NCBI RefSeq assembly: GCF_001485475.2
Contig: NZ_DF977002.1
Location: 132,426 to 156,425, forward strand
DNA: 24,000 bases
From: Tepidanaerobacter syntrophicus
GTDB taxonomy: Bacteria > Bacillota > Thermosediminibacteria > Thermosediminibacterales > Tepidanaerobacteraceae
Direction: 5' to 3'
Below, in pieces: positions 871-19,168 of the stretch. The notes beneath the pieces were generated by a model. That model ran no database searches. It had not been told where the DNA came from and saw nothing but the letters and a program-made list of their open reading frames with translations. The translations under genes were made by a program, and so were the position numbers. Numbering within the stretch: position 1 is the first letter of the stretch; every line of letters begins with the position of its first letter.

Positions 871-3858
871 CTATGCGCCTCTATTAAGCTTCTCATAGGT
901 CTCGGTCAGCATATATTCCATAAGGGCATTCCTAAACTGTTCATCATCTAAGACGCGAGTGAAAAATGTTCGGTTCTGGTCCATTCTGTCAACTACCTTA
1001 TTTATAAAGACTTTTTCAAAGGCAAGTCTAAAATCATCGATGGTGTTTGTCTTAGCTTTCAGGACTAAGTCTTTATCTGCTGCAAACTCTTCTTTAATCT
1101 GCTCTACAGATAACTGATCTGCTTTTGTAAAGTCAGTGCCAAAGCGTTCATTAAGACGCTCAATAATGCTTGACAAGTATTCTTCTTCGCTTTCGCGCAC
1201 CATTCCTCCTCCATATCTTGGCGGAGAAACCGGCACATTTTCATAATTTTCTCCAAGCGAGATACTTCCTTCGAATGTCTTTTTAGCCGTATAATATTCC
1301 ATAGCAATTTCATCTGCCAGATGAATAGCAGAACCCTTTTCCTTAGGCAGCTTTTTTAGCAGATATGTTAAATACACATACAGCTTATGCAGCTCTATAT
1401 CCTCGAAGGGTGTTATCTGAAGGATAAAAGAATAAAGTCTTATATACTTTGCTGCTTGGCTGCTAAAATCCTCCTTATGTTCTTCGTCTAACTTTTTAAA
1501 TCTTTCTACCGCCGTATCTATAAGGCTGTTTAATACAGCTCTGTCTTTTGAATTCTTTTTTTCCTTAGGTTTAAAATATATATAAGCAAACTTATCCAGT
1601 TCTTCCTTAATATACACTCCGCAGGCATCAAGCATCGTCTGAATATCATAGAGCAAATTCGGCTCTGTCACTTCTTCCACAATAGTAGCCTCATAATAAG
1701 GCTTAAAGGATTCCTGAATATCTTCTGCCTTATTTACAAAGTCAAGTACAAAAGTATCTTCTTTCCCTTGACAGGTTCTGTTTAGCCTAGATAGAGTCTG
1801 AACAGCTTTTACTCCTGATAGCTTTTTATCCACATACATTGTATGCAGAAGCGGCTGGTCAAAACCTGTTTGGTATTTTTCCGCAACCAAAAGCACTTGA
1901 TACTCATCAGTTGCAAAGCGGTCCGGAAGCTCTGATTCTTTAAAGCCGTTCATATCGCTTTCCGTATATTCTATGCCTTCGTCCCTTACTATCCCCGAAA
2001 ATGCTACTAATGTTTTTAGCCCTTTATAGCCCATCTTTTTGATGTATTCATCGAAGGCATGTTTGTAGCGCACTGCATGAAGCCTGGAACTTGTTACAAC
2101 CATAGCCTTCGCTCTTCCCCCTATTTTATGACTGGTCACATTTCTGAAATGCTCCACCATTATTTCAGTTTTTTGGGCAATATTGTGGGGATGAAGGCTT
2201 ACATACCTTGTAAGAGCCTTCGTTGCTTTAGCTTTGTCAAAAGCAGGGTCGTCTTCTATCTTTTTTGCCAATTTAAAATAGGTTTCATAAGTTACATAGT
2301 TTCGAAGCACATCTAAGATAAATCCCTCTTCAATAGCCTGTCTCATTGAATACAAATGGAAGGGGTGAGGCAAACCGTCTTCACCTATAGTTCCAAACAT
2401 TTCCAGTGTTTTAGCTTTGGGGGTTGCAGTAAATGCAAAAAAGCTAATATTGGGCTGCCTTCCTCTCTTCTTTATTGTATTTAAGATTTCTTCTTCAGGA
2501 TCGTATCCTTTGCCCTCTAGTTCTTCGTCCAGTCTTGCTGCTTCTTCAAGACTGCTTGCCGACAGCACTTCTTGTAAAGAAGCCATATTTTCTCCTGTAC
2601 TGCTTGAATGAGCCTCATCTATAATAACAGCATATTTGCGGTTTTCCAGTTCTCCCACTTTTTCAATTATAAAAGGAAATTTTTGCAGTGTAGAAATAAT
2701 AATCCTCGCACCGCTTTTTAGGGCCTCAGCCAGCTGGCCAGAGTCCTTATCTATTTTTTGAACAACTCCGTGTTTATGTTCAAGCTGATAAATGCTTTCC
2801 TGCAGCTGCCTATCTAAAACTCTTCTGTCTGTAATAACGATTACCGAATCAAAAACCGAGTTATCTTCATTATCATGTAAATTAGCAAGGCGATGTGCAA
2901 GCCAAGAAATAGAGTTAGTCTTTCCTGATCCTGCACTGTGCTGCACAAGATAGTTCGTTCCTGCTCTCTTTTCTCTTACATCAGCTTCTAGCTTTCTTAC
3001 TACATCTAATTGATGATATCTTGGAAATATGACTTTTTCTGAAATATAAGTTTTTCCATCTATGTCTTTTTTCTCTTCAGTTTCAATGAATACAAACCTC
3101 TTTAGTATATCCATTAAGCTATCCTTTTGGAGTATCTCCTCCCAAAGATAAGCTGTTTTAAACCCATTAGGATTTTCCGGATTGCCTCTGCCTCCATCTT
3201 TTCCTTTATTAAAAGGTAAAAAGAAGGTCTTATCTCCTGCAAGCCTTGTCGTCATATAAACTTCCGAGGTATCTGCCGCAAAAAATACTATGGCTCTTTT
3301 TTTAAACTGAAAAAGCAGCTCATTAGGATTTCTGTCCTGCTTATACTGCATTATGGCATCTTCATAAGTCTGACCAGTAAAAGGATTTTTAAGTTCCAGC
3401 ACCACAGCAGGAAGACCATTGACACAGATGAGCATATCAATGCTATTTTCGCTTTTTGTGCTATAGCGCACCTGCCTTGTAACAGATATGCGATTCTTTT
3501 TGTAGAGTCTTACCATTTCCTCGTTTAATTTACTGGCAGGCTTAAAATAAGCAAGGTCCAAATATATGCCATAGTCCTTAATTCCATGCCTTAACACATC
3601 GATCATACCCCGATTGTTAAGCTCTCGGTTTAATCTGCTCAGTATCTTAAATCTGTACTGATCTTTATAGATTTCCCTTAATTTTTCCATCTTCTTAGGT
3701 TGAGTGTCCTCTAAAAACTCAAAAAGAATCTTAGCATCAACTGCAAACTCCCTATTGTAGTCGGCAGGATCGCCCTTAACATAACCCGAATTTAAAAGAT
3801 GCTCCTGGATATATTCCTCAAAACCTTTTTCCAAAAGCTCTGCAGGAGTTTTAGCCAA
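871..3858 (-). CDS. hsdR: Type I restriction enzyme R subunit (HsdR)
   Basis: 995 aa. N-terminal PD-(D/E)xK nuclease motif (DMLICVNGLPAVVLELK). SF2 motor motifs QHSAGSGKT (Walker A), VIIDEAHSS (DEAH) and FAFTATP. Long C-terminal helical domain. TTG start (3856-3858) with GAGGTGA RBS at 3864-3870. Confidence 0.95.
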   Translation of the reverse strand: MAKTPAELLEKGFEEYIQEHLLNSGYVKGDPADYNREFAVDAKILFEFLEDTQPKKMEKLREIYKDQYRFKILSRLNRELNNRGMIDVLRHGIKDYGIYLDLAYFKPASKLNEEMVRLYKKNRISVTRQVRYSTKSENSIDMLICVNGLPAVVLELKNPFTGQTYEDAIMQYKQDRNPNELLFQFKKRAIVFFAADTSEVYMTTRLAGDKTFFLPFNKGKDGGRGNPENPNGFKTAYLWEEILQKDSLMDILKRFVFIETEEKKDIDGKTYISEKVIFPRYHQLDVVRKLEADVREKRAGTNYLVQHSAGSGKTNSISWLAHRLANLHDNEDNSVFDSVIVITDRRVLDRQLQESIYQLEHKHGVVQKIDKDSGQLAEALKSGARIIISTLQKFPFIIEKVGELENRKYAVIIDEAHSSSTGENMASLQEVLSASSLEEAARLDEELEGKGYDPEEEILNTIKKRGRQPNISFFAFTATPKAKTLEMFGTIGEDGLPHPFHLYSMRQAIEEGFILDVLRNYVTYETYFKLAKKIEDDPAFDKAKATKALTRYVSLHPHNIAQKTEIMVEHFRNVTSHKIGGRAKAMVVTSSRLHAVRYKHAFDEYIKKMGYKGLKTLVAFSGIVRDEGIEYTESDMNGFKESELPDRFATDEYQVLLVAEKYQTGFDQPLLHTMYVDKKLSGVKAVQTLSRLNRTCQGKEDTFVLDFVNKAEDIQESFKPYYEATIVEEVTEPNLLYDIQTMLDACGVYIKEELDKFAYIYFKPKEKKNSKDRAVLNSLIDTAVERFKKLDEEHKEDFSSQAAKYIRLYSFILQITPFEDIELHKLYVYLTYLLKKLPKEKGSAIHLADEIAMEYYTAKKTFEGSISLGENYENVPVSPPRYGGGMVRESEEEYLSSIIERLNERFGTDFTKADQLSVEQIKEEFAADKDLVLKAKTNTIDDFRLAFEKVFINKVVDRMDQNRTFFTRVLDDEQFRNALMEYMLTETYEKLNRGA

Positions 3859-3877
3859 TTAACTCACCTCAAATAAA

Positions 3878-4786
3878 CTAATTTTCATCATAGCTTTTTG
3901 CTATAAGTTCTTTAGCCTTTTCAAAATCATCCCTATTATTTATCCTAACTTCCAAATTCCCGGTACCATAATGACCAATATTTCTTACATCTCTGGTAAA
4001 ACCTTCTTTTAGTTCCACTTCGTCAGGGTTTATATTTAAATACATAAGTACTGTTCTATTCTTTGGATAAATTTCCACGCAAGCAAAATTTCGTATCTTT
4101 TTAAAGGCAATGTAATATTTTAAAACCTTTTCCTGTATGTCGTCTCCAAGGCTTAATATAAAATCCCTAACTGAATAATACATGTCCTGCAGTTCCTCAT
4201 CGGCTTGTTGAAGATTCTCTGTAACAGTTTTATATACGTTCGATTTGGTTATGCCATCATCGGAAATGTTTGCTGTTTGTGAAGCTGTAGTAACATTAAC
4301 CAGTTCAAATAAAATTAAATCATCCACATATTTTTTATATCTGATAAGTTCTATATTCCTATTAATTTGCTTTACAGCATATTCATCAAACTTTGTAAAG
4401 TCACCTGCAACACATAAAAGTCTCGGCATAGACCATTCTATCTTATCGGCAATATCTTTCCCTAGTTTCTCCATAACAAGTAATTTAAACTCTGCCTTAT
4501 GGTCCATTAGCCAATCAAGATAATATAAACCTTGATTTATTACATTCTCATTTAAAGCCCTCTTATATTCTAATATTACTGGGCAATAGTTCTCATCAAT
4601 GCCCAAAGAGTCAATGCGCCCACCATGAGTTTTCCCTGTAGAATATTCTGAAGCTAAAAAGGTTATGCCAAAAAATGCTTCCATATTATTCTCAATTAAA
4701 GTTTGAATAGACTTTTCGATAGCTACCGAAGTACCTACAAGCTCTTTTACTCCGTTTTTGATGCTAAAAAGTTTTAAATCACCCAT
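3878..4786 (-). CDS. NucS/DUF91-like PD-(D/E)xK nuclease-fold protein with a DUF5655-like C-terminal domain, embedded in the type I R-M operon
   Basis: The ORF track gives 3878-4801. ATG 4786 is preferred because GGGGGT lies 7 nt upstream of it. N-terminal half carries GGRIDSLGIDENYCPVILEYKR...INQGLYYLDW, a D...ExK...Q..Y pattern as in NucS/RecB-fold nucleases. C-terminal YYIAFKK..NFACVEIYPK...IGHYGTGNLEVRI resembles DUF5655. Same strand as hsdS and hsdR, with tight junctions on both sides. Confidence 0.6.
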   Translation of the reverse strand: MGDLKLFSIKNGVKELVGTSVAIEKSIQTLIENNMEAFFGITFLASEYSTGKTHGGRIDSLGIDENYCPVILEYKRALNENVINQGLYYLDWLMDHKAEFKLLVMEKLGKDIADKIEWSMPRLLCVAGDFTKFDEYAVKQINRNIELIRYKKYVDDLILFELVNVTTASQTANISDDGITKSNVYKTVTENLQQADEELQDMYYSVRDFILSLGDDIQEKVLKYYIAFKKIRNFACVEIYPKNRTVLMYLNINPDEVELKEGFTRDVRNIGHYGTGNLEVRINNRDDFEKAKELIAKSYDEN

Positions 4787-4801
4787 ACAATTTACCCCCA
4801 T

Positions 4802-6139
4802 CTAACTAACAGCAGCATAATCTCTTACATCAATTTTGCCCGTCACCGCTTCAAAAATAAGGGCTTGGCGGTATTCTTTGAGTTTCTGGATTTGTTCTTG
4901 GATTTCTGATACTAAACTGTCGATTTCAGCAGTTTTTTGGTCGAGGAAGTTAGCGATGGATATTTGTTCGTCAAGGGGAGGTAATGGTAGCCTCATATTT
5001 GCATATTTTTGACCATTGAAATTGCTGATTGTCGATGTTACTAATGCTATTTTAATTTGACTATAAAAGCTCTCTGACTTTGTAAAATAAAATAAATATC
5101 GGGAATAGTTATATTTATTGGCTCTAAATTTAACTAGATAACTCGCATAAGTGCACTTTCCGTATTTATCCTCATCGAAATAAAGCGAAATTCCCAGCGA
5201 ACCACTTCTAGATACTAAAATATCCCCAGTTTTTAAAATATTTTTTCTTTCCTTTTCTATCGGGATAAAAACGCCTTGCATTTTGCTATCTAAATTTCCT
5301 AATTTGTTTATATCAGTTGCTCTTATTAGTCTTATACCATCTTCCGTATAGCTCTCTGACGGTTCATTTAATCCATAAATTGCAGATTCGATACATGCAT
5401 ATTTCAGCTTTGTGACCTTCCACCCCTCGGGTATATCCCCTATCCACTCAATCCCCGAATCCTTCATCTTTACATTTAGGTTAAGACCTTTTGTTACTGC
5501 TTCGGTTATAACTGCCTGCCGCTTTTCCTGAAGCAGTTCAATCAGTTTTTCTTTATCCGCAATCAGGTCGTCTATTTCCGCAGTTTTTTGGTCGAGGAAG
5601 TTGACAATTTCTCTCTGCTCACTCAATGGCATCAATAAACACTCAAAGTTTTTCAAAGACTCATTATTTATGATTGGTAACGTTGTATAATTGGAAATAT
5701 TTTTTATTACTTCTTGGTTAGCATGCAACCAGTAATATAAATAATCACTGTTCACTTTTTGCTCATCAGCGATTATCCCCGTTATCTGTTGGTTAAAACT
5801 TCCATCAATTCCTAATATAGCTACTTTACCAACAGTAGCTCCAATGCCAACAACTATTATAGTTTTTTTTGGAAACAATCTTGCCTCATTATCAATAATA
5901 GCTATGCTACTAATCTTTCTTTTTGACTCACGTAATACCTTGTCTTCTAAAAAATCTCCTGGTGTAAACCATTGAATTTCTCCATTAAAATAATCCTCAT
6001 TTTTTGTCGTTGGTGTCCTTCCTGTTTGAATTAATTTAACTATACGTTTCAGAGGTTCTACCTTCCACCCCTCAGGTATCTTTCCTATCCACTCGATGCC
6101 GGAATCTTTGTATTTGTCATATCTTTTAAAGTTGCTCAT
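4802..6139 (-). CDS. hsdS: Type I R-M specificity subunit (HsdS), two target-recognition domains
   Basis: 445 aa with internal duplication. DSGIEWIGKIPEGWKVEPLKR matches DSGIEWIGDIPEGWKVTKLKY at the start of each TRD. FLDQKTAEIDDLIADKEKLIELLQEKRQAVITEAVTKG matches FLDQKTAEIDSLVSEIQEQIQKLKEYRQALIFEAVTGK in the two coiled-coil conserved regions. The ATG overlaps the hsdM stop (ATGA at 6136-6139). Confidence 0.93.
   Translation of the reverse strand: MSNFKRYDKYKDSGIEWIGKIPEGWKVEPLKRIVKLIQTGRTPTTKNEDYFNGEIQWFTPGDFLEDKVLRESKRKISSIAIIDNEARLFPKKTIIVVGIGATVGKVAILGIDGSFNQQITGIIADEQKVNSDYLYYWLHANQEVIKNISNYTTLPIINNESLKNFECLLMPLSEQREIVNFLDQKTAEIDDLIADKEKLIELLQEKRQAVITEAVTKGLNLNVKMKDSGIEWIGDIPEGWKVTKLKYACIESAIYGLNEPSESYTEDGIRLIRATDINKLGNLDSKMQGVFIPIEKERKNILKTGDILVSRSGSLGISLYFDEDKYGKCTYASYLVKFRANKYNYSRYLFYFTKSESFYSQIKIALVTSTISNFNGQKYANMRLPLPPLDEQISIANFLDQKTAEIDSLVSEIQEQIQKLKEYRQALIFEAVTGKIDVRDYAAVS
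4919..4951. repeat. hsdS conserved-region direct repeat, copy 1 (partner 5570-5602)
   Basis: 33 nt with 2 mismatches to the partner. The core gcagttttttggtcgaggaagtt (4929-4951) is a perfect 23-nt match to 5580-5602. Confidence 0.9.
5416..5462. repeat. hsdS TRD-leader direct repeat, copy 1 (partner 6061-6107)
   Basis: 39 of 47 nt identical to 6061-6107, by hand alignment. Both copies begin ccttccacccctc. Encodes the DSGIEWIG.IPEGWKV segment. Confidence 0.85.
5570..5602. repeat. hsdS conserved-region direct repeat, copy 2 (partner 4919-4951)
   Basis: See partner entry. Encodes the FLDQKTAEID segment of the central conserved region. Confidence 0.9.
6061..6107. repeat. hsdS TRD-leader direct repeat, copy 2 (partner 5416-5462)
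   Basis: See partner entry. Confidence 0.85.
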
Positions 6140-8154
6140 TCGCCTATCACCTTTTGGAGTTTTTGCTGGATGCTTTTTTCAAGTTGTTTTATTTCTTCTA
6201 AGATTTCCTCGGAAGGTCTTAGTGGTTCATATTTATAAAAATGTCGCGTGAAGGGGATTTCGTATCCTATTTTTGTCTTGGATTCATCTATCCAAGCATC
6301 AGGCGCGTGGGGTTTTACTTCCCGATTAAAGTAATCATGTATGTCTTCTTTTAGGGGCACATTCTCTGTATCTCTTAAATCCGGATCCGGTTCAGGATTT
6401 CCTTTGGCATCCAGACAGACATCCGCTGTTTCATCCTTTTCAGACAGGGCTGAAATAATAGCTTTAAGCAGTGTATTATCAAGCTTTACATCGCTGTTTT
6501 TGAAGGCTTTTTTAAGCTCTTTTGTAAATACATCTCTATTTTTATACATAATATCAGAATTCATAGTTTTCAGTACCGCTATAATCTGCTGCTGCAATTT
6601 CTTGCCTTCTTCTATTTCGCGAAGACCCGCCGCACCTTTTTTCTTAGATTCGGCAAGTTTTTGAAAGGCTCTTTCATTGTAAAGGTTGTTTATCCTCTCC
6701 TCGGTTACTTGAAAGTTTAGTCTTAAAGGTCTTTCTACGACTATCTTCCGGTAGCCAAAGTCTTCGTTGTCAAAAATTTTGCAGTATTCGTTTTCCTTAA
6801 ATTCTCCGTATATCCGCGTAATTTCCTCTATCTGTTCTTCGCTGATTTCATTTCTCTTATTGCCGAGGCTTTTTCTCATCTTCTGGTAAAAGTCTACTGC
6901 ATTTACCAGCTGTATTTTCCCTGTTCTTACAGGACCTTTCATCAAATCATTGTTTTTGCGGTTGGTTACTATCCAAATATAGGTAGAAATGCCTGTATTA
7001 TAAAATAGCTGGTCAGGTAGAGCAATAATTCCTTCCAACATATCATTTTCAATTATCCAGCGCCTTATTTCTGATTCCCCCGAACCTGCATCTCCTGTGA
7101 ACAAGGGCGAACCATTGAATATAATGGCAATACGGCTGCCCTTTTCGTCTTGTTTCATCTTCGATATTAAATGCTGTAGGAACAAAAGAGAACCATCTGA
7201 TATCCTGGGAAGACCTGCACCAAATCTGCCGTTAAATCCTTCTTTTTCATATTCTTCGCGGATAAACTTTTCTGCTTTCTTCCATTCTACCCCAAAAGGG
7301 GGATTCGTCAGCATATATCTAAATGTTTTATCCTTGTGCCCATCTTCTGTAAAACTGTCACCTAAAATAATGTTGTCTGCATCCTGCCCCTTTATGAGCA
7401 TATCAGATTTGCAAATGCTGTAGGACTGCGGATTTATCTCTTGACCGAATAATTCCACCTGTATGCCCGGGTTTAGTTCTTTCAAATATTGCTCGGCAAC
7501 TGAGAGCATACCGCCGGTACCGGCACAACAGTCATAGACAGTTACGACAAGACCCGGAGTTGTCAAACTTTCCTTATCCTCATTTAAAAGTATATTTACC
7601 ATAAGCCTTATAACTTCTCGAGGCGTATAGTGATCGCCGGCTTCAGCGTGTTCGGAAAATCTTCTTATAAGCTCCTCGAATATATAGCCCATCTCTGTAT
7701 TGCTTACCACATCGGGATGTAAATCTATCTTATTAAACTCAGATACAATAAGATAAAGCAGGTTATTATCATTAAGTTTTGTAATCTGCTTGTCAAAATC
7801 AAAATGCTCTATGATTTCTCTGGCATTCTTTGAAAAACCGTTGATATAGTTTCTTAAATTGCTTGCGATGTTATCAGGGTCTGCCAGTAATTTTTCAAAA
7901 TCATATTTGCTTGTATTGTTGAATTTCTGTTTCGATATTTTATTCAAAACAGGGTCCATATTTTGAAGCCCTGTTTTCTTTAAAGCTTCATACTCTTTCA
8001 ATACTTCTTCCTTAGTTTCTGCCAAAACACAATCAAATCTTCTAAGAACAGCCATCGGGAGAATTACGTCTCCATACTGCTCTTTTTTGTAAGGACCTCT
8101 TAAAAGCTCTGCTATGCTCCATATAAAATTAACCTTGTCTTGAAAGTTGGTCAA
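6136..8154 (-). CDS. hsdM: Type I R-M N6-adenine DNA methyltransferase subunit (HsdM)
   Basis: HsdM_N-like start (FQDKVNFIWSIAELLRGPYKKEQYGDVILPMAVLRRFD), SAM motif VYDCCAGTGGML and catalytic LTNPPFG. The start is revised from ATG 8244 to in-frame TTG 8152-8154. AGGAGTG (8161-8167) lies 6 nt upstream of the TTG, and the 30 extra codons overlap the promoter. Confidence 0.9.
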   Translation of the reverse strand: MTNFQDKVNFIWSIAELLRGPYKKEQYGDVILPMAVLRRFDCVLAETKEEVLKEYEALKKTGLQNMDPVLNKISKQKFNNTSKYDFEKLLADPDNIASNLRNYINGFSKNAREIIEHFDFDKQITKLNDNNLLYLIVSEFNKIDLHPDVVSNTEMGYIFEELIRRFSEHAEAGDHYTPREVIRLMVNILLNEDKESLTTPGLVVTVYDCCAGTGGMLSVAEQYLKELNPGIQVELFGQEINPQSYSICKSDMLIKGQDADNIILGDSFTEDGHKDKTFRYMLTNPPFGVEWKKAEKFIREEYEKEGFNGRFGAGLPRISDGSLLFLQHLISKMKQDEKGSRIAIIFNGSPLFTGDAGSGESEIRRWIIENDMLEGIIALPDQLFYNTGISTYIWIVTNRKNNDLMKGPVRTGKIQLVNAVDFYQKMRKSLGNKRNEISEEQIEEITRIYGEFKENEYCKIFDNEDFGYRKIVVERPLRLNFQVTEERINNLYNERAFQKLAESKKKGAAGLREIEEGKKLQQQIIAVLKTMNSDIMYKNRDVFTKELKKAFKNSDVKLDNTLLKAIISALSEKDETADVCLDAKGNPEPDPDLRDTENVPLKEDIHDYFNREVKPHAPDAWIDESKTKIGYEIPFTRHFYKYEPLRPSEEILEEIKQLEKSIQQKLQKVIGE

Positions 8155-8229
8155 ATATATCACTCCTGCTGCATGTATTATAAATTTTTTAAATCTAACT
8201 TTTATCAGATTTAATATCGTATGTACAAA

Positions 8230-8258
8230 ATTATACCAAGCCATATGTTAATATTCTA
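8230..8258 (-). promoter_or_regulatory. Candidate extended -10 promoter of the hsdMS-nuclease-hsdR operon
   Basis: Minus strand reads TAGAAT (8253-8258), 17 nt, TGgTATAAT (8230-8238). It sits about 75 nt upstream of the TTG start and downstream of the permease terminator. Confidence 0.45.
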
Positions 8259-8309: not shown

Positions 8310-8332
8310 ATAAAAAGCACCCTTTGGGTGCT
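8310..8332 (-). terminator. Rho-independent terminator after the ABC-2 permease gene
   Basis: Minus strand reads AGCACCC-AAA-GGGTGCT followed by TTTTAT. The 7-bp GC-rich stem (8316-8322 / 8326-8332) starts at the TGA stop. Confidence 0.6.
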
Positions 8333-9066
8333 CATAAGATCCACTTTCTTTCTATATTTCTATGGCAGAGGTGAAATAGCAGCAGGACAAAGATCAGCAG
8401 GGCTAGGATATCCAGGAGGATATTGAAAGCAGGGGGCCCTATGATAGCGCCTTTGAGCATGTCGGTTCCATAGGTCAGCGGCAGGCAAAAGGAGATAAGT
8501 CTTAACGGGGCAGGAAGTTGGCTGATTGGTATAAACAGTCCGCATAAAAACAGCATGGGAAACCTGAAGAAGTTGGAAAAGGTCTGTGCCTCGAAAACTT
8601 CCTTTGCCGATACGGCAATAAATAGGCCTATTAAGGCAGAAGTAGCCGCAATGAGAAAAATCGCAGCAAGTACTGCTGCCCAGTTTATTTTGCTCAAATC
8701 TATAAAGAAAGCTGCAAAAACAGCCGGCACAAAGGCATTAACTATCCCGAATATTACTGCGCCGGATAATTTCGCAAGAACCATCATGTTAAGACTTATT
8801 GGAGCAAGGAGCAGTCTGTCAAAGGAGCGTCCTTTTTTCTCAAAGGTAATCGTAACAGCCAGCATCGAGGTTGTTCCAAACAGCACGCTCATTGCCATTA
8901 GTCCCGGCAGCAGTTCTATGATTTCCACATGTTCAGGTGAGCGGAGAAGCTGCATTAGCGTCCAAGAAACAGGAAAGATGATTCCCCAGCTGATGTTAGG
9001 CGGTTTTAAATAATAGTTTCTAACATCTTTTTTTAAAATATTCCAAAATGCAATCCATGTTTTCAT
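8332..9066 (-). CDS. ABC-2 type transporter permease
   Basis: 244 aa, about six hydrophobic helices, typical size and pattern for ABC-2 exporters. One nucleotide separates it from the upstream ATPase gene. Confidence 0.85.
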   Translation of the reverse strand: MKTWIAFWNILKKDVRNYYLKPPNISWGIIFPVSWTLMQLLRSPEHVEIIELLPGLMAMSVLFGTTSMLAVTITFEKKGRSFDRLLLAPISLNMMVLAKLSGAVIFGIVNAFVPAVFAAFFIDLSKINWAAVLAAIFLIAATSALIGLFIAVSAKEVFEAQTFSNFFRFPMLFLCGLFIPISQLPAPLRLISFCLPLTYGTDMLKGAIIGPPAFNILLDILALLIFVLLLFHLCHRNIERKWIL

Positions 9067-18646: not shown

Positions 18647-19168
18647 TCAATAGCATATTTTCTTTGCCAGTTCCTCTATGTCCTTTTTATCAAACATTTT
18701 TCGTGCTAATACGCAGATATTATTTAATGATTCACTTAATCCTATGCCTCCCTTTTTGGGCATCTTAACAATATGCAGCGCATCCTTGTATTCTGAAATA
18801 ATATCTTCGTTTTCCTTTGACATAGCGGCTACAACCGGTATATCTGTTTTGTCTTTTAAGTTTTTACCAATAACGGCACACATATATGCATATCCTTTGT
18901 AGTTATACGCAGGTCCGCAGATAACTACATCAGGATTTATTTTTTTCACCATAGCAGTCATTTTTTTAGTTACTACTTCTTCGTTTTCTTTAAAATAATC
19001 ATTGCCGCAATACAAGCAAGCTACGATTTCACCATCTACATTTTTAAGATGAGGCTCGATCATGGGAGCCGAACCTATTGATCCTTTTTTACCTCCCGGA
19101 GGAAGATCCGATCTTTCCTTGCCTCCCATTCCTGCTTGTATTTGGTCAAATATCATCAAAACCTTCAT
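18647..19168 (-). CDS. GrdB N-terminal-domain-like protein (glycine/sarcosine/betaine reductase component B family, short form)
   Basis: 173 aa. IFDQIQAGMGGKE, CGNDYF and ICGPAYNYKGYAYMCAVIG parallel the N-terminal NQFF.GIGGEEKA / CGD.YF / AGPAFNAGRYG pattern that I recall for GrdB. It contains a CLYC (CxxC) motif. It lacks the C-terminal two-thirds of GrdB and ends ...KKICY-TGA. Confidence 0.55.
   Translation of the reverse strand: MKVLMIFDQIQAGMGGKERSDLPPGGKKGSIGSAPMIEPHLKNVDGEIVACLYCGNDYFKENEEVVTKKMTAMVKKINPDVVICGPAYNYKGYAYMCAVIGKNLKDKTDIPVVAAMSKENEDIISEYKDALHIVKMPKKGGIGLSESLNNICVLARKMFDKKDIEELAKKICY

What the first reader, a model, noticed from the sequence alone, without database searches (positions are those of the whole stretch)
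3878..4801. Nuclease-like gene wedged between hsdS and hsdR, the slot PrrC occupies in EcoprrI
Seen in the sequence: hsdM and hsdS overlap by ATGA. The hsdS stop (TAG 4802-4804) directly abuts this ORF. The ORF's own stop lies 19 nt from the hsdR TTG start, and that gap holds the hsdR RBS. No terminator occurs anywhere between the genes, so the four genes look like one transcript. The N-terminal half has GGRIDSLGIDENYCPVILEYKR...NQGLYY, an apparently intact D...ExK...Q..Y catalytic pattern of NucS/DUF91 RecB-fold nucleases. The C-terminal ~110 aa look like the uncharacterised DUF5655 module. Established knowledge: type I systems need only HsdR, HsdM and HsdS. In EcoprrI the same slot holds PrrC, a latent anticodon nuclease restrained by the R-M complex and triggered by a phage anti-restriction peptide. 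Inference: this could be an R-M-guarded second-line effector, released when restriction is inhibited, or an accessory nuclease subunit. I know of no characterised function for this architecture.
Basis: partly seen in the sequence, partly recalled or inferred. Interest (0 to 1): 0.7.

Follow-up and report, generated by a model that had tools for sequence, protein, structure and literature searches.

The report
Catalogued candidate defence nuclease inside R-M operon
The gene between hsdS and hsdR is real and encodes a two-domain DNA nuclease, but its family is already listed as an untested phage-defence candidate (PADLOC PDC-S18), and it looks like swappable cargo in a variable slot of the restriction operon, not a PrrC-like partner of it.

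Summary
On the minus strand, hsdM, hsdS, the ORF and hsdR form one tight operon. The ORF encodes a NucS-type PD-(D/E)xK nuclease domain with an intact D..ExK..QxxxY motif, a disordered linker and a DUF5655 domain. One correction: the true start is probably ATG 4786, not 4801.

The family is not new. It matches PADLOC model PDC-S18 at E = 2e-149. PDC-S18 is one of 145 candidates found by "guilt-by-embedding" in type I R-M, BREX and DISARM (Payne et al. 2024). I found no experimental test of it.

Three comparisons argue against a dedicated PrrC-like coupling:
- About 45% of 80 species-level loci have a type I R-M gene within 10 kb, but the position varies, and many copies stand alone.
- Its sequence similarity does not track that of the neighbouring Hsd proteins.
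- In relatives of this same R-M family, the S-R slot is empty or holds other cargo.

The DUF5655 domain folds like YjbR, a "double-wing" putative DNA-binding fold. Other family members replace it with DUF4268 or DUF3489.

Best reading: an autonomous DNA-cutting defence cargo gene, co-transcribed with the R-M system. Its mechanism and trigger are unknown. Interest is moderate to low.

The parts
6136..8244 (-). hsdM, type I R-M methyltransferase subunit (702 aa)
   Evidence: Pfam N6_Mtase 2.6e-58 and HsdM_N 6e-27. PADLOC MTase_I PDLC03029 2.6e-301. Overlaps hsdS by ATGA.
4802..6139 (-). hsdS, specificity subunit (445 aa, two target-recognition domains)
   Evidence: Pfam Methylase_S 2.5e-36 in two stretches. 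PADLOC Specificity_I 1.8e-116.
4795..4799 (-). GGGGG, probable ribosome-binding site for the corrected start ATG 4786
   Evidence: Read directly from the sequence. It lies 8 nt upstream of ATG 4786. Homologues start at the equivalent MGDLKLF.
3878..4786 (-). PDC-S18-family gene (302 aa from the probable start ATG 4786; the longest ORF runs to ATG 4801, 307 aa; stop TAG 3878-3880)
   Evidence: PADLOC PDC-S18 PDLC04946 E = 2.3e-149, covering residues 4-306. 100%-identical protein P0001 and 93%-identical 302-aa homologues. AF2 model with pLDDT 82.9.
4301..4786 (-). N-terminal NucS-type PD-(D/E)xK nuclease domain (residues 1-162, including an invariant N-terminal beta-hairpin MxDxKLF)
   Evidence: Foldseek: EndoMS 5gke E = 3.8e-5, NucS 2vld, SduA 8ps5, FokI cleavage domain. 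58 of 80 family members hit Pfam NucS_C.
4520..4612 (-). Catalytic motif D59 ... E73-x-K75 ... Q85-xxx-Y89 (GGRIDSLGIDENYCPVILEYKR...NQGLYY)
   Evidence: At least 90% conserved in 80 representatives at 35-55% identity. Invariant in closer homologues.
4226..4300 (-). Variable, predicted disordered linker (residues 163-187)
   Evidence: pLDDT below 50 for residues 165-184. Contains indels and is unconserved in the alignments.
3881..4225 (-). C-terminal DUF5655 domain (residues 188-302), YjbR-like alpha/beta 'double-wing' fold; putative DNA-binding or targeting module
   Evidence: Pfam DUF5655 8.7e-13. Domain model pLDDT 95.4. Best PDB match is E. coli YjbR 2fki, prob 1.0, TM 0.59. [quoted passage not shown]
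3864..3870 (-). GAGGTGA, ribosome-binding site of hsdR, inside the 19-nt gap after the PDC-S18 stop
   Evidence: Read directly from the sequence.
871..3858 (-). hsdR, restriction subunit (995 aa, TTG start), with its own intact nuclease motif
   Evidence: Pfam HSDR_N 1e-17, SWI2_SNF2 3.7e-23, ResIII, T1R_D3-like. TIGR00348 hsdR 1.3e-61. The motif IDML...VLELK...MQY is present.
8315..8333 (-). Terminator-like hairpin plus T-run that closes the upstream ABC-transporter unit and marks the 5' boundary of the four-gene operon
   Evidence: 8-bp stem with 5 GC pairs and a T tail.

Best explanation
The ORF is a genuine gene of the PDC-S18 family. It encodes a single-polypeptide DNA endonuclease with three parts: a NucS-type PD-(D/E)xK catalytic domain, a flexible linker and a YjbR-like (DUF5655) domain that most likely binds DNA and selects the target.

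It is an autonomous, horizontally mobile cargo gene. It has landed in the variable hsdS-hsdR slot of this type I R-M operon and is co-transcribed, and probably translationally coupled, with it.

I infer that it works as an independent second layer of DNA-level defence. It would cut a feature of foreign DNA that the m6A-based type I system does not cover. That feature could be a modified base (type IV-like) or a DNA structure or end (NucS/Shedu-like). It does not act as an Hsd subunit, and it is not a latent toxin held in check by the R-M complex.

What is shown and what is inferred:
- Shown: the gene, its domains, the conserved active site, the operon structure, the enrichment near R-M/BREX, and its independence from any particular R-M family.
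- Inferred: DNA as the substrate, the targeting role of DUF5655, the defence function and the trigger.
For: **Family and fold.**
- PADLOC PDC-S18 matches at E = 2.3e-149.
- Foldseek gives NucS/EndoMS prob 1.0, plus SduA, FokI and Card1 nuclease domains.
- The catalytic D/E/K/Q/Y residues are at least 90% conserved across the family. NucS_C hits occur in 58 of 80 members.

**C-terminal domain.**
- The model has pLDDT 95.4, and its best match is YjbR.
[quoted passage not shown] - The same nuclease module, 58-65% identical, occurs with DUF4268 (the PDC-S11-type C-terminus), with DUF3489, with tandem DUF5655 or with an N-terminal HIRAN domain. This is a conserved effector with a swappable targeting module.

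**Genomic context.**
- 36 of 80 species loci have HsdM/HsdS genes within 10 kb. 24 of 80 are directly adjacent to a type I gene, often with 4-nt overlaps.
- The same slot is used in Cupriavidus and Acinetobacter plasmids (30% identity) and in E. coli KL53.
- Other neighbours include BREX-like PglZ, PIN, TIR, Schlafen, NERD, McrBC and BrxL genes.

**Autonomy.**
- Stand-alone copies exist.
- No other conserved partner gene was found.
- There is no co-divergence with HsdM/HsdR.
- The S-R slot of this R-M family is empty or holds other cargo in 24 of 26 loci.
- The window's HsdR keeps its own nuclease motif.

**Prior.** 4 of 8 tested PDC/HEC candidates protected E. coli.
Against: - No experiment exists on any family member.
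- The DNA-binding role of DUF5655 rests on a moderate fold match (TM 0.59, Foldseek E = 0.014) to a protein whose own DNA binding is only modelled.
- The family is unusually conserved for a defence gene, at 55-63% identity across bacterial phyla and methanogens. A conserved housekeeping-type substrate would fit that equally well.
- About a third of well-flanked loci show no defence neighbour that I could recognise. Some neighbours are plainly metabolic.
- Frequent 4-nt overlaps with hsd genes are what one would also expect of a stoichiometric partner.
- My hsdR profile also picks up other SF2 helicases, so 'hsdR-only' loci may not be type I.
Confidence: 0.5

Rival explanations
1. PrrC-like guard. 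The nuclease is kept latent by contact with the type I R-M complex. It is unleashed when a phage anti-restriction protein (Ocr/ArdA/Stp-like) disables that complex, and it then destroys DNA as an abortive-infection back-up.
For: - It holds the same M-S-X-R position as prrC in EcoprrI, and the slot recurs in distant homologues.
- It is tightly coupled to hsdS and hsdR, often by 4-nt overlaps.
- It also associates with BREX-like systems, which Ocr likewise inhibits.
Against: - 36 of 80 loci have no type I gene within 10 kb, and plasmid copies stand alone. By contrast, PrrC is described as almost exclusively embedded.
- Its position in the operon varies.
- Its sequence is 55-62% identical whatever the Hsd family, including families sharing under 15% identity. 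A conserved protein-protein masking interface is therefore hard to picture.
- It has no homology to PrrC.
- No toxicity-controlling partner was found.
Confidence: 0.1
2. Accessory nuclease or processing subunit of methylation-based defence. It would cooperate with the type I (or BREX) complex on DNA. It might, for example, cut or degrade DNA at stalled translocating complexes, or process restriction products.
For: - It is translationally coupled with hsd genes in many loci.
- It associates with several independent families of type I R-M and with PglZ systems.
- The HIRAN fusion suggests action at DNA ends or forks.
Against: - Close relatives of this R-M family lack it entirely or carry unrelated genes in the slot.
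- HsdR here has a complete nuclease motif.
- Stand-alone copies exist.
- Type I R-M needs only HsdR, HsdM and HsdS (established knowledge).
Confidence: 0.1
3. Not a defence gene. It could be a DNA repair or recombination nuclease related to NucS. It could also be a selfish passenger that uses R-M operons and islands as safe, co-transferred landing sites without helping the host.
For: - It is strongly conserved across phyla.
- The NucS-type fold is best known from mismatch and branched-DNA repair.
- Some loci have only metabolic neighbours.
- IS200-like and other mobile genes also occupy the same slot.
Against: - It is not a NucS orthologue. It scores 15.8 bits against the NCBIfam cut-off of 216 and has no NucS N-terminal domain.
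- Its distribution is patchy and driven by horizontal transfer, on plasmids and islands. Only 6 of 5426 E. coli genomes carry it.
- It is enriched beside R-M, BREX and other defence genes.
- It shows the effector-plus-variable-domain modularity typical of defence proteins.
Confidence: 0.15

Closest known systems
PADLOC phage defence candidate PDC-S18 (Payne et al. 2024, bioRxiv 10.1101/2024.01.29.577857)
   Same: The window protein matches the family HMM along its full length at E = 2.3e-149. It is a single gene embedded in a type I R-M operon, which is the criterion by which the family was defined.
   Different: Nothing differs structurally; this is a member. The family itself has no validated function or mechanism in the literature I could search.
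PADLOC candidate PDC-S11 (NucS-like nuclease + DUF4268)
   Same: The N-terminal nuclease module is related. Natural chimeras exist that join an S18-type nuclease to an S11-type DUF4268 C-terminus.
   Different: The C-terminal domain is DUF4268, not DUF5655. The window protein hits S11 models only weakly, and only in its N-terminus (E = 5e-5).
NucS / EndoMS mismatch and branched-DNA endonuclease (PDB 2vld, 5gke)
   Same: The RecB-like PD-(D/E)xK catalytic domain with the D..ExK..QxxxY motif. It is the best structural match.
   Different: S18 has no NucS N-terminal DNA-binding and dimerisation domain. Its nuclease is N-terminal and is followed by DUF5655. The NCBIfam NucS equivalog scores 15.8 against a cut-off of 216. 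S18 sits in defence islands and has a patchy distribution.
PrrC anticodon nuclease of EcoprrI
   Same: The operon position, hsdM-hsdS-X-hsdR, and co-transcription with a type I system.
   Different: The protein is unrelated: PrrC is an ABC-type ATPase plus a tRNA anticodon nuclease. PrrC is almost exclusively embedded in type I R-M, whereas S18 is frequently elsewhere. The predicted substrate of S18 is DNA.
Shedu (SduA, DUF4263 nuclease)
   Same: A single-protein defence nuclease with a NucS-like PD-(D/E)xK domain joined to a variable sensing domain. Foldseek hit to 8ps5 at E = 4e-3.
   Different: The domain order is reversed: in SduA the variable sensing domain is N-terminal (from memory). 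No Shedu HMM hit was found. The C-terminal DUF5655 has no Shedu counterpart.
Type IV (modification-dependent) restriction enzymes linked to type I loci (Mrr, McrBC)
   Same: They combine a nuclease with a separate DNA-reader domain. They need no cognate methyltransferase and are often next to or inside type I R-M loci. The McrB-N reader is structurally related to YjbR, the best match of DUF5655.
   Different: There is no sequence homology. Modified-base dependence is entirely untested. There is no GTPase/AAA+ motor and no Mrr-type domain.

Membership tests
PADLOC PDC-S18 | Significant full-length match to a PDC-S18 HMM | tested here: met
   PDLC04946 E = 2.3e-149, residues 4-306 against profile positions 16-322 of 365. 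PDLC04945 E = 1.1e-63.
PADLOC PDC-S18 | Single-gene cassette found embedded in BREX, DISARM or type I R-M | tested here: met
   It lies between hsdS and hsdR on the same strand, with no other conserved partner.
PADLOC PDC-S18 | Anti-phage activity | not testable with these tools
   No experimental report was found. PDC-S18 was not among the 8 candidates tested in PMC12881386.
NucS/EndoMS | C-terminal RecB-like PD-(D/E)xK nuclease domain with D, ExK and QxxxY | tested here: met
   Foldseek 5gke E = 3.8e-5, prob 1.0. The motif is conserved. Pfam NucS_C hits 58 of 80 members. In S18 the domain is N-terminal, not C-terminal.
NucS/EndoMS | NucS N-terminal DNA-binding/dimerisation domain and orthologue-level similarity | tested here: not met
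   Pfam gives no hit to a NucS N-terminal model at E <= 0.01. NCBIfam NF003270 scores 15.8 bits against a cut-off of 216.
PrrC (R-M-guarded anticodon nuclease) | Homology to PrrC (ABC-ATPase N-domain plus ACNase C-domain) | tested here: not met
   The PADLOC library search lists only PDC-S18, PDC-S11 and a marginal Cmr5 match. I assume, but did not verify, that the library holds a PrrC model. The fold is PD-(D/E)xK plus YjbR-like.
PrrC (R-M-guarded anticodon nuclease) | Obligate embedding in a type I R-M operon | tested here: not met
   24 of 80 loci are adjacent to a type I gene. 36 of 80 have no type I gene within 10 kb, and the position varies.
PrrC (R-M-guarded anticodon nuclease) | Physical masking by the R-M complex and activation by an anti-restriction factor | not testable with these tools
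   No multimer prediction or experiment was available. The lack of co-divergence with HsdM/HsdR argues against it only indirectly.
Shedu (SduA) | DUF4263 nuclease domain recognised by Shedu models | tested here: not met
   No Shedu HMM hit. Only a fold-level match to 8ps5 at E = 4e-3.
Type IV restriction endonuclease | Cleavage depends on modified bases; no cognate methyltransferase needed | not testable with these tools
   Stand-alone copies without a methyltransferase and a YjbR/McrB-N-related fold are compatible with this, but they are not a test.
Type I R-M system (the host operon) | HsdM (N6_Mtase), HsdS (two TRDs) and HsdR (nuclease plus SF2 motor) all present | tested here: met

The most novel reading that the evidence does not exclude
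PDC-S18 is a DNA-targeting counterpart of PrrC that is not tied to one R-M family. It would be a latent endonuclease that monitors the integrity or activity of m6A-based defences (type I R-M, BREX), perhaps through a DNA state they create and not through protein contact. It would cut DNA when those defences are inhibited. A less exotic but still new alternative is that it founds a family of type IV-like restriction enzymes whose reader is a YjbR 'double-wing' domain.
Probability: 0.12. Interest if true: 0.75.

Novelty: new member of a known kind. Interest (0 to 1): 0.38.

Why it matters
If PDC-S18 proves to be an active defence nuclease, it would add a widespread single-gene system to the known immune repertoire. 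It occurs in at least 590 species-level genomes across bacteria and methanogens, on plasmids, and in a few E. coli strains. It would also assign a function to DUF5655.

The modular design, a conserved NucS-type cutter with interchangeable DUF5655, DUF4268 or DUF3489 domains, suggests a general targeting logic that is worth dissecting.

For this window specifically, the result is mostly clarifying. The gene is one of many interchangeable passengers in a cargo hot spot of type I operons. It is not evidence for a new R-M-coupled mechanism.

Tried and rejected
- **Nuclease-dead HsdR complemented by the ORF.** Rejected. HsdR keeps the D..ELK..QY motif.
- **Conserved partner or immunity gene.** All-vs-all clustering of the four genes on either side in 80 loci found only hsdM, hsdS and hsdR as recurrent neighbours. 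ORFs under 80 aa were not examined.
- **Co-evolution with Hsd subunits.** None was found.
- **Recent insertion judged by composition.** The gene's GC is 0.32-0.34, against 0.34-0.40 for the hsd genes. This is not informative.
- **Sequence search of PDB chains.** Searches with the whole-family profile and with the C-domain profile gave only chance-level hits.
- **Supplementary tables of the Payne preprint.** The stored copies are truncated and contain neither 'PDC-S18' nor 'DUF5655'.
- **Literature searches.** 'PDC-S18', 'DUF5655' and DUF91 with type I restriction returned nothing relevant.
- **Phage origin.** Only 31 of 2.9 million viral contigs and 3 phage records carry a relative. Several of those viral contigs also carry type I R-M genes beside the relative. 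Bacillus phage G Gp54 shares the two-domain fold.
- **Apparent alternative C-termini.** Many of those in the 50%-identity representatives look like frameshifted or truncated metagenome calls, so I ignored them.
Full report
**1. The observation**

The minus strand of the window carries four tightly packed ORFs:
- hsdM, 6136-8244
- hsdS, 4802-6139
- the target ORF, 3878-4801
- hsdR, 871-3858

Pfam, PADLOC and NCBIfam confirm a complete type I R-M system:
- HsdM has N6_Mtase plus HsdM_N.
- HsdS has two Methylase_S stretches.
- HsdR has HSDR_N, an SF2 helicase region and T1R_D3.

- hsdM and hsdS overlap by ATGA.
- The hsdS stop, TAG 4802-4804, is followed at once by ATG 4801.
- The ORF's TAG, 3878-3880, lies 19 nt before the hsdR TTG. 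GAGGTGA sits in that gap.

A consensus scan finds no terminator-like site on the minus strand between hsdS and the end of hsdR. The one convincing hairpin, at 8333-8315, closes the upstream ABC-transporter unit. Promoter-like matches are no more frequent than in shuffled sequence. A single four-gene transcript is therefore the simplest reading.

One correction is needed. Homologues are almost all 300-302 aa and begin MGDLKLF or MSDIKLF. The real start is probably ATG 4786, preceded by GGGGG at 4795-4799. The residue numbers below count from that start.

**2. What the protein is**

- **Pfam.** DUF5655 matches at E = 8.7e-13. NucS_C matches only below threshold, at E = 0.004.
- **Family-level support for NucS_C.** Of 80 representatives sharing 35-55% identity, 58 hit NucS_C (best E = 1e-9) and 78 hit DUF5655.
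- **Active site.** E24, Q28, E32, E47, D59, D64, E73, Y74, K75, Q85 and Y89 are at least 90% conserved. The RecB-type D..ExK..QxxxY site is under selection.
- **Whole-protein model.** The AlphaFold model has pLDDT 82.9. It shows a nuclease domain (residues 1-162), a disordered linker (165-184) and an alpha/beta C-domain.
- **Fold search, nuclease domain.** Foldseek against the PDB ranks EndoMS/NucS first (5gke E = 3.8e-5; 2vld). The Shedu nuclease SduA, the FokI cleavage domain, the R2 endonuclease domain and Card1 follow.
- **Fold search, C-domain.** Modelled alone, the C-domain reaches pLDDT 95.4. Its only confident PDB neighbour is E. coli YjbR (2fki, prob 1.0, TM 0.59). DUF1801 and frataxin-like folds follow.
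[quoted passage not shown] It is a structural neighbour of McrB-N, the 5-methylcytosine reader of McrBC. It is also found fused to nucleases in defence neighbourhoods.
- **Sequence searches of PDB chains** found nothing.

**3. It is already catalogued**

The protein matches PADLOC model PDC-S18 along its full length at E = 2.3e-149. PDCs are 145 'phage defence candidates'. They were derived from genes embedded in BREX, DISARM and type I R-M systems by 'guilt-by-embedding'.

I found no experimental work on PDC-S18 or DUF5655. Later surveys say that most PDCs remain unvalidated. One study tested eight PDC/HEC candidates, not including S18, and found that four protected E. coli B.

**4. Distribution and context**

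The family is large. It has at least 8000 clusters at 90% identity and 3261 clusters at 50% identity with E <= 1e-3.

Two peptide patterns alone found relatives in at least 590 species-representative genomes. These span Bacillota, Pseudomonadota, Bacteroidota, Planctomycetota, Chloroflexota, Actinomycetota and methanogenic archaea. Their identity to the window protein is 55-63%. That is a horizontal-transfer pattern with unusually strong conservation.

I built iterated profiles from the window's HsdM, HsdS and HsdR and searched the 80 retrieved loci:
- 24 of 80 loci have the gene directly adjacent to a type I gene, and 13 of those have gaps of 20 nt or less or 4-nt overlaps.
- 36 of 80 have an HsdM or HsdS gene within 10 kb.
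- 36 of 80 show no type I gene at all.
- Of the 47 loci with at least 5 kb on both sides, 17 have a type I gene within 300 bp and 27 have one within 3 kb.

A type I system occupies a fraction of a percent of a genome (general knowledge), so this enrichment is very large.

The position is not fixed. I saw these arrangements:
- M-S-X-R in L002, L004, L041, L066, L074 and L078
- R-S-M-X
- R-M-S-X
- M-S-R-X
- X-M-S-R
- divergent orientations

The M-S-X-R slot recurs in three other settings: a Cupriavidus plasmid, Acinetobacter plasmids whose protein is only 30% identical, and 6 of 5426 complete E. coli genomes (53% identity, inside an integrase/toxin-antitoxin island).

Other copies have different neighbours:
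- Staphylococcus plasmid copies stand alone beside sugar-utilisation genes.
- A 72%-identical variant seen in hundreds of metagenome contigs follows a PglZ/SNF2/methyltransferase (BREX-like) system, next to OLD/Gabija-like genes.

The remaining immediate neighbours are heterogeneous. They include PIN, RhuM, TIR, Schlafen-AlbA_2, NERD, HNH, McrBC, BrxL and other PDCs, and also ordinary metabolic genes. Clustering of neighbours found no recurrent partner other than hsdM, hsdS and hsdR.

One caveat applies. My hsdR profile also detects other SF2 restriction helicases, so loci with only an 'hsdR' hit may not be type I.

**5. Tests of the coupling models**

- **(a) Co-divergence.** Across 33 loci, pairwise identity of the S18 proteins does not correlate with pairwise identity of the neighbouring HsdM (Spearman -0.02) or HsdR (-0.11). 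The protein stays 55-62% identical to the window copy whether the adjacent HsdM is 87% or under 15% identical. The gene has therefore joined unrelated type I families repeatedly. A conserved masking interface with Hsd proteins is unlikely.
- **(b) Dispensability.** I retrieved 40 metagenome loci with relatives of this HsdR at 52-99% identity. The S-R junction is visible in 26 of them.
  - S18 fills the slot in only two, both 99% identical to the window.
  - The slot is empty in 7.
  - In 17 it holds other genes. These are an unannotated protein of about 327 aa (8 loci), a Schlafen-AlbA_2/HATPase_c_4 protein (4 loci), an AAA_21 plus RloB pair, a 214 plus 238 aa pair, a three-ORF set (143, 109 and 370 aa; L141) and an IS200-like gene.
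  - The M-S junction is variable too, holding RhuM, YhcG/DUF1016 or HATPase_c_3.
  - The slot is a cargo hot spot, and S18 is one interchangeable passenger.
- **(c) HsdR nuclease.** The window's HsdR retains its own nuclease motif, so S18 is not supplying a missing activity.

**6. Modularity**

Representatives with 58-65% identity over residues 1-170 carry other C-termini or additions:
- DUF4268, which is the C-terminal module of the sister candidate PDC-S11
- DUF3489
- two tandem DUF5655 domains
- an N-terminal HIRAN domain added to the S18 module

HIRAN is a DNA 3'-end and fork-binding module (from memory).

A conserved cutter with a swappable accessory domain is the usual layout of defence nucleases. 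It supports a targeting or sensing role for DUF5655. Many other apparent C-terminal variants look like frameshifted metagenome calls, and I ignored them.

**7. Most likely mechanism**

I consider an autonomous, single-protein DNA endonuclease the best-supported reading. The NucS-type domain cuts. The YjbR-like domain binds DNA and selects the target. The gene rides in, and is expressed with, the type I operon as an extra defence layer.

Two observations suggest a target that is a fixed chemical or structural feature and not a variable sequence:
- Copies exist without any methyltransferase nearby.
- The reader domain is highly conserved.

Two candidate targets follow:
- a modified base, which would make it type IV-like and would complement m6A-based systems that hypermodified phages evade
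- a DNA end or branched intermediate, as for NucS and Shedu, which the HIRAN fusion hints at

These last steps are inference. Nothing here tests substrate, trigger or phenotype.

**8. Rivals**

- **PrrC-like guard (about 0.10).** Variable position, stand-alone copies and the lack of co-divergence weaken it.
- **Accessory subunit (about 0.10).** Its dispensability within the same R-M family and the intact HsdR nuclease weaken it.
- **Non-defence repair nuclease or selfish passenger (about 0.15).** The strong conservation and some metabolic neighbourhoods keep it alive. The patchy, island- and plasmid-borne distribution and the defence-rich neighbourhoods argue against it.

**9. Comparison with known systems and verdict**

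The protein is a member of PDC-S18 by sequence. It works like a NucS-type nuclease at the catalytic level, but it is not a NucS orthologue: it has no NucS N-domain and scores 15.8 bits against an NCBIfam cut-off of 216. It is unrelated to PrrC. It resembles Shedu only in fold and in design logic.

Novelty: a new member of a known, catalogued but uncharacterised kind. The finding is real and correctly described, but its most interesting interpretation is not supported. Interest is moderate to low, at 0.38. The residual novel reading is a family-agnostic guard or a new type IV-like enzyme with a double-wing reader. It remains testable, most easily with the native E. coli KL53 operon.

Noticed in passing
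L132:6003-6986 (also L133, L142, L143, L145, L148, L151, L154): An unannotated protein of about 327 aa with no Pfam hit is the most frequent occupant of the hsdS-hsdR slot in relatives of this R-M family (HsdR about 54% identical). It is another embedded candidate of unknown function.
   Followed up: partly
L127:6620-7717: In an operon whose HsdR is 69% identical to the window's, a different NucS_C-type nuclease (365 aa, with an unrelated C-terminal region) sits after hsdR instead of S18 between S and R. NucS-like nucleases therefore seem to associate repeatedly with this R-M family.
   Followed up: partly
Proteins P0235, P0242, P0241, P0131, P0125: These are natural chimeras of the S18 nuclease module: with DUF4268 (PDC-S11-type), with DUF3489, with an N-terminal HIRAN domain, or with two tandem DUF5655 domains. 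They point to domain shuffling between the PDC-S18 and PDC-S11 families.
   Followed up: partly
L166:5703-12979 (E. coli KL53 chromosome, NZ_CP030919.1): Six of 5426 complete E. coli genomes carry a 53%-identical homologue (WP_023063267.1) in the same M-S-X-R slot, inside an island with an integrase and CbtA/YeeU toxin-antitoxin genes. This is a convenient native system for experiments.
   Followed up: partly
BFVD entry G3MBC4 (Bacillus phage G Gp54): A jumbo-phage protein shares the whole two-domain fold (Foldseek E = 2e-12 over 281 columns). A few phages therefore encode PDC-S18-like nucleases themselves.
   Followed up: no
L084-L093 (contexts of P0076): A 72%-identical variant is flanked by conserved small ORFs (65 aa upstream, 76-89 aa downstream). 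It sits between a PglZ/BREX-like system and an AAA_21/PHP (OLD/Gabija-like) gene. The role of the small ORFs is unknown.
   Followed up: no
window 18647-19168 (-): A 173-aa ORF matches only the first half of the GRDB (glycine/sarcosine/betaine reductase selenoprotein B) profile, positions 3-164 of 347. The next gene starts 66 nt downstream. It may be a short GrdB-like protein or a truncated gene. It sits among PTS, PRD-regulator and peptidase genes (M81/MlrC, M20, asparaginase).
   Followed up: no
window 4245-4523 (+): A 92-aa TTG ORF lies antisense within the S18 gene. It is probably spurious, since it lies opposite a strongly conserved coding region.
   Followed up: no
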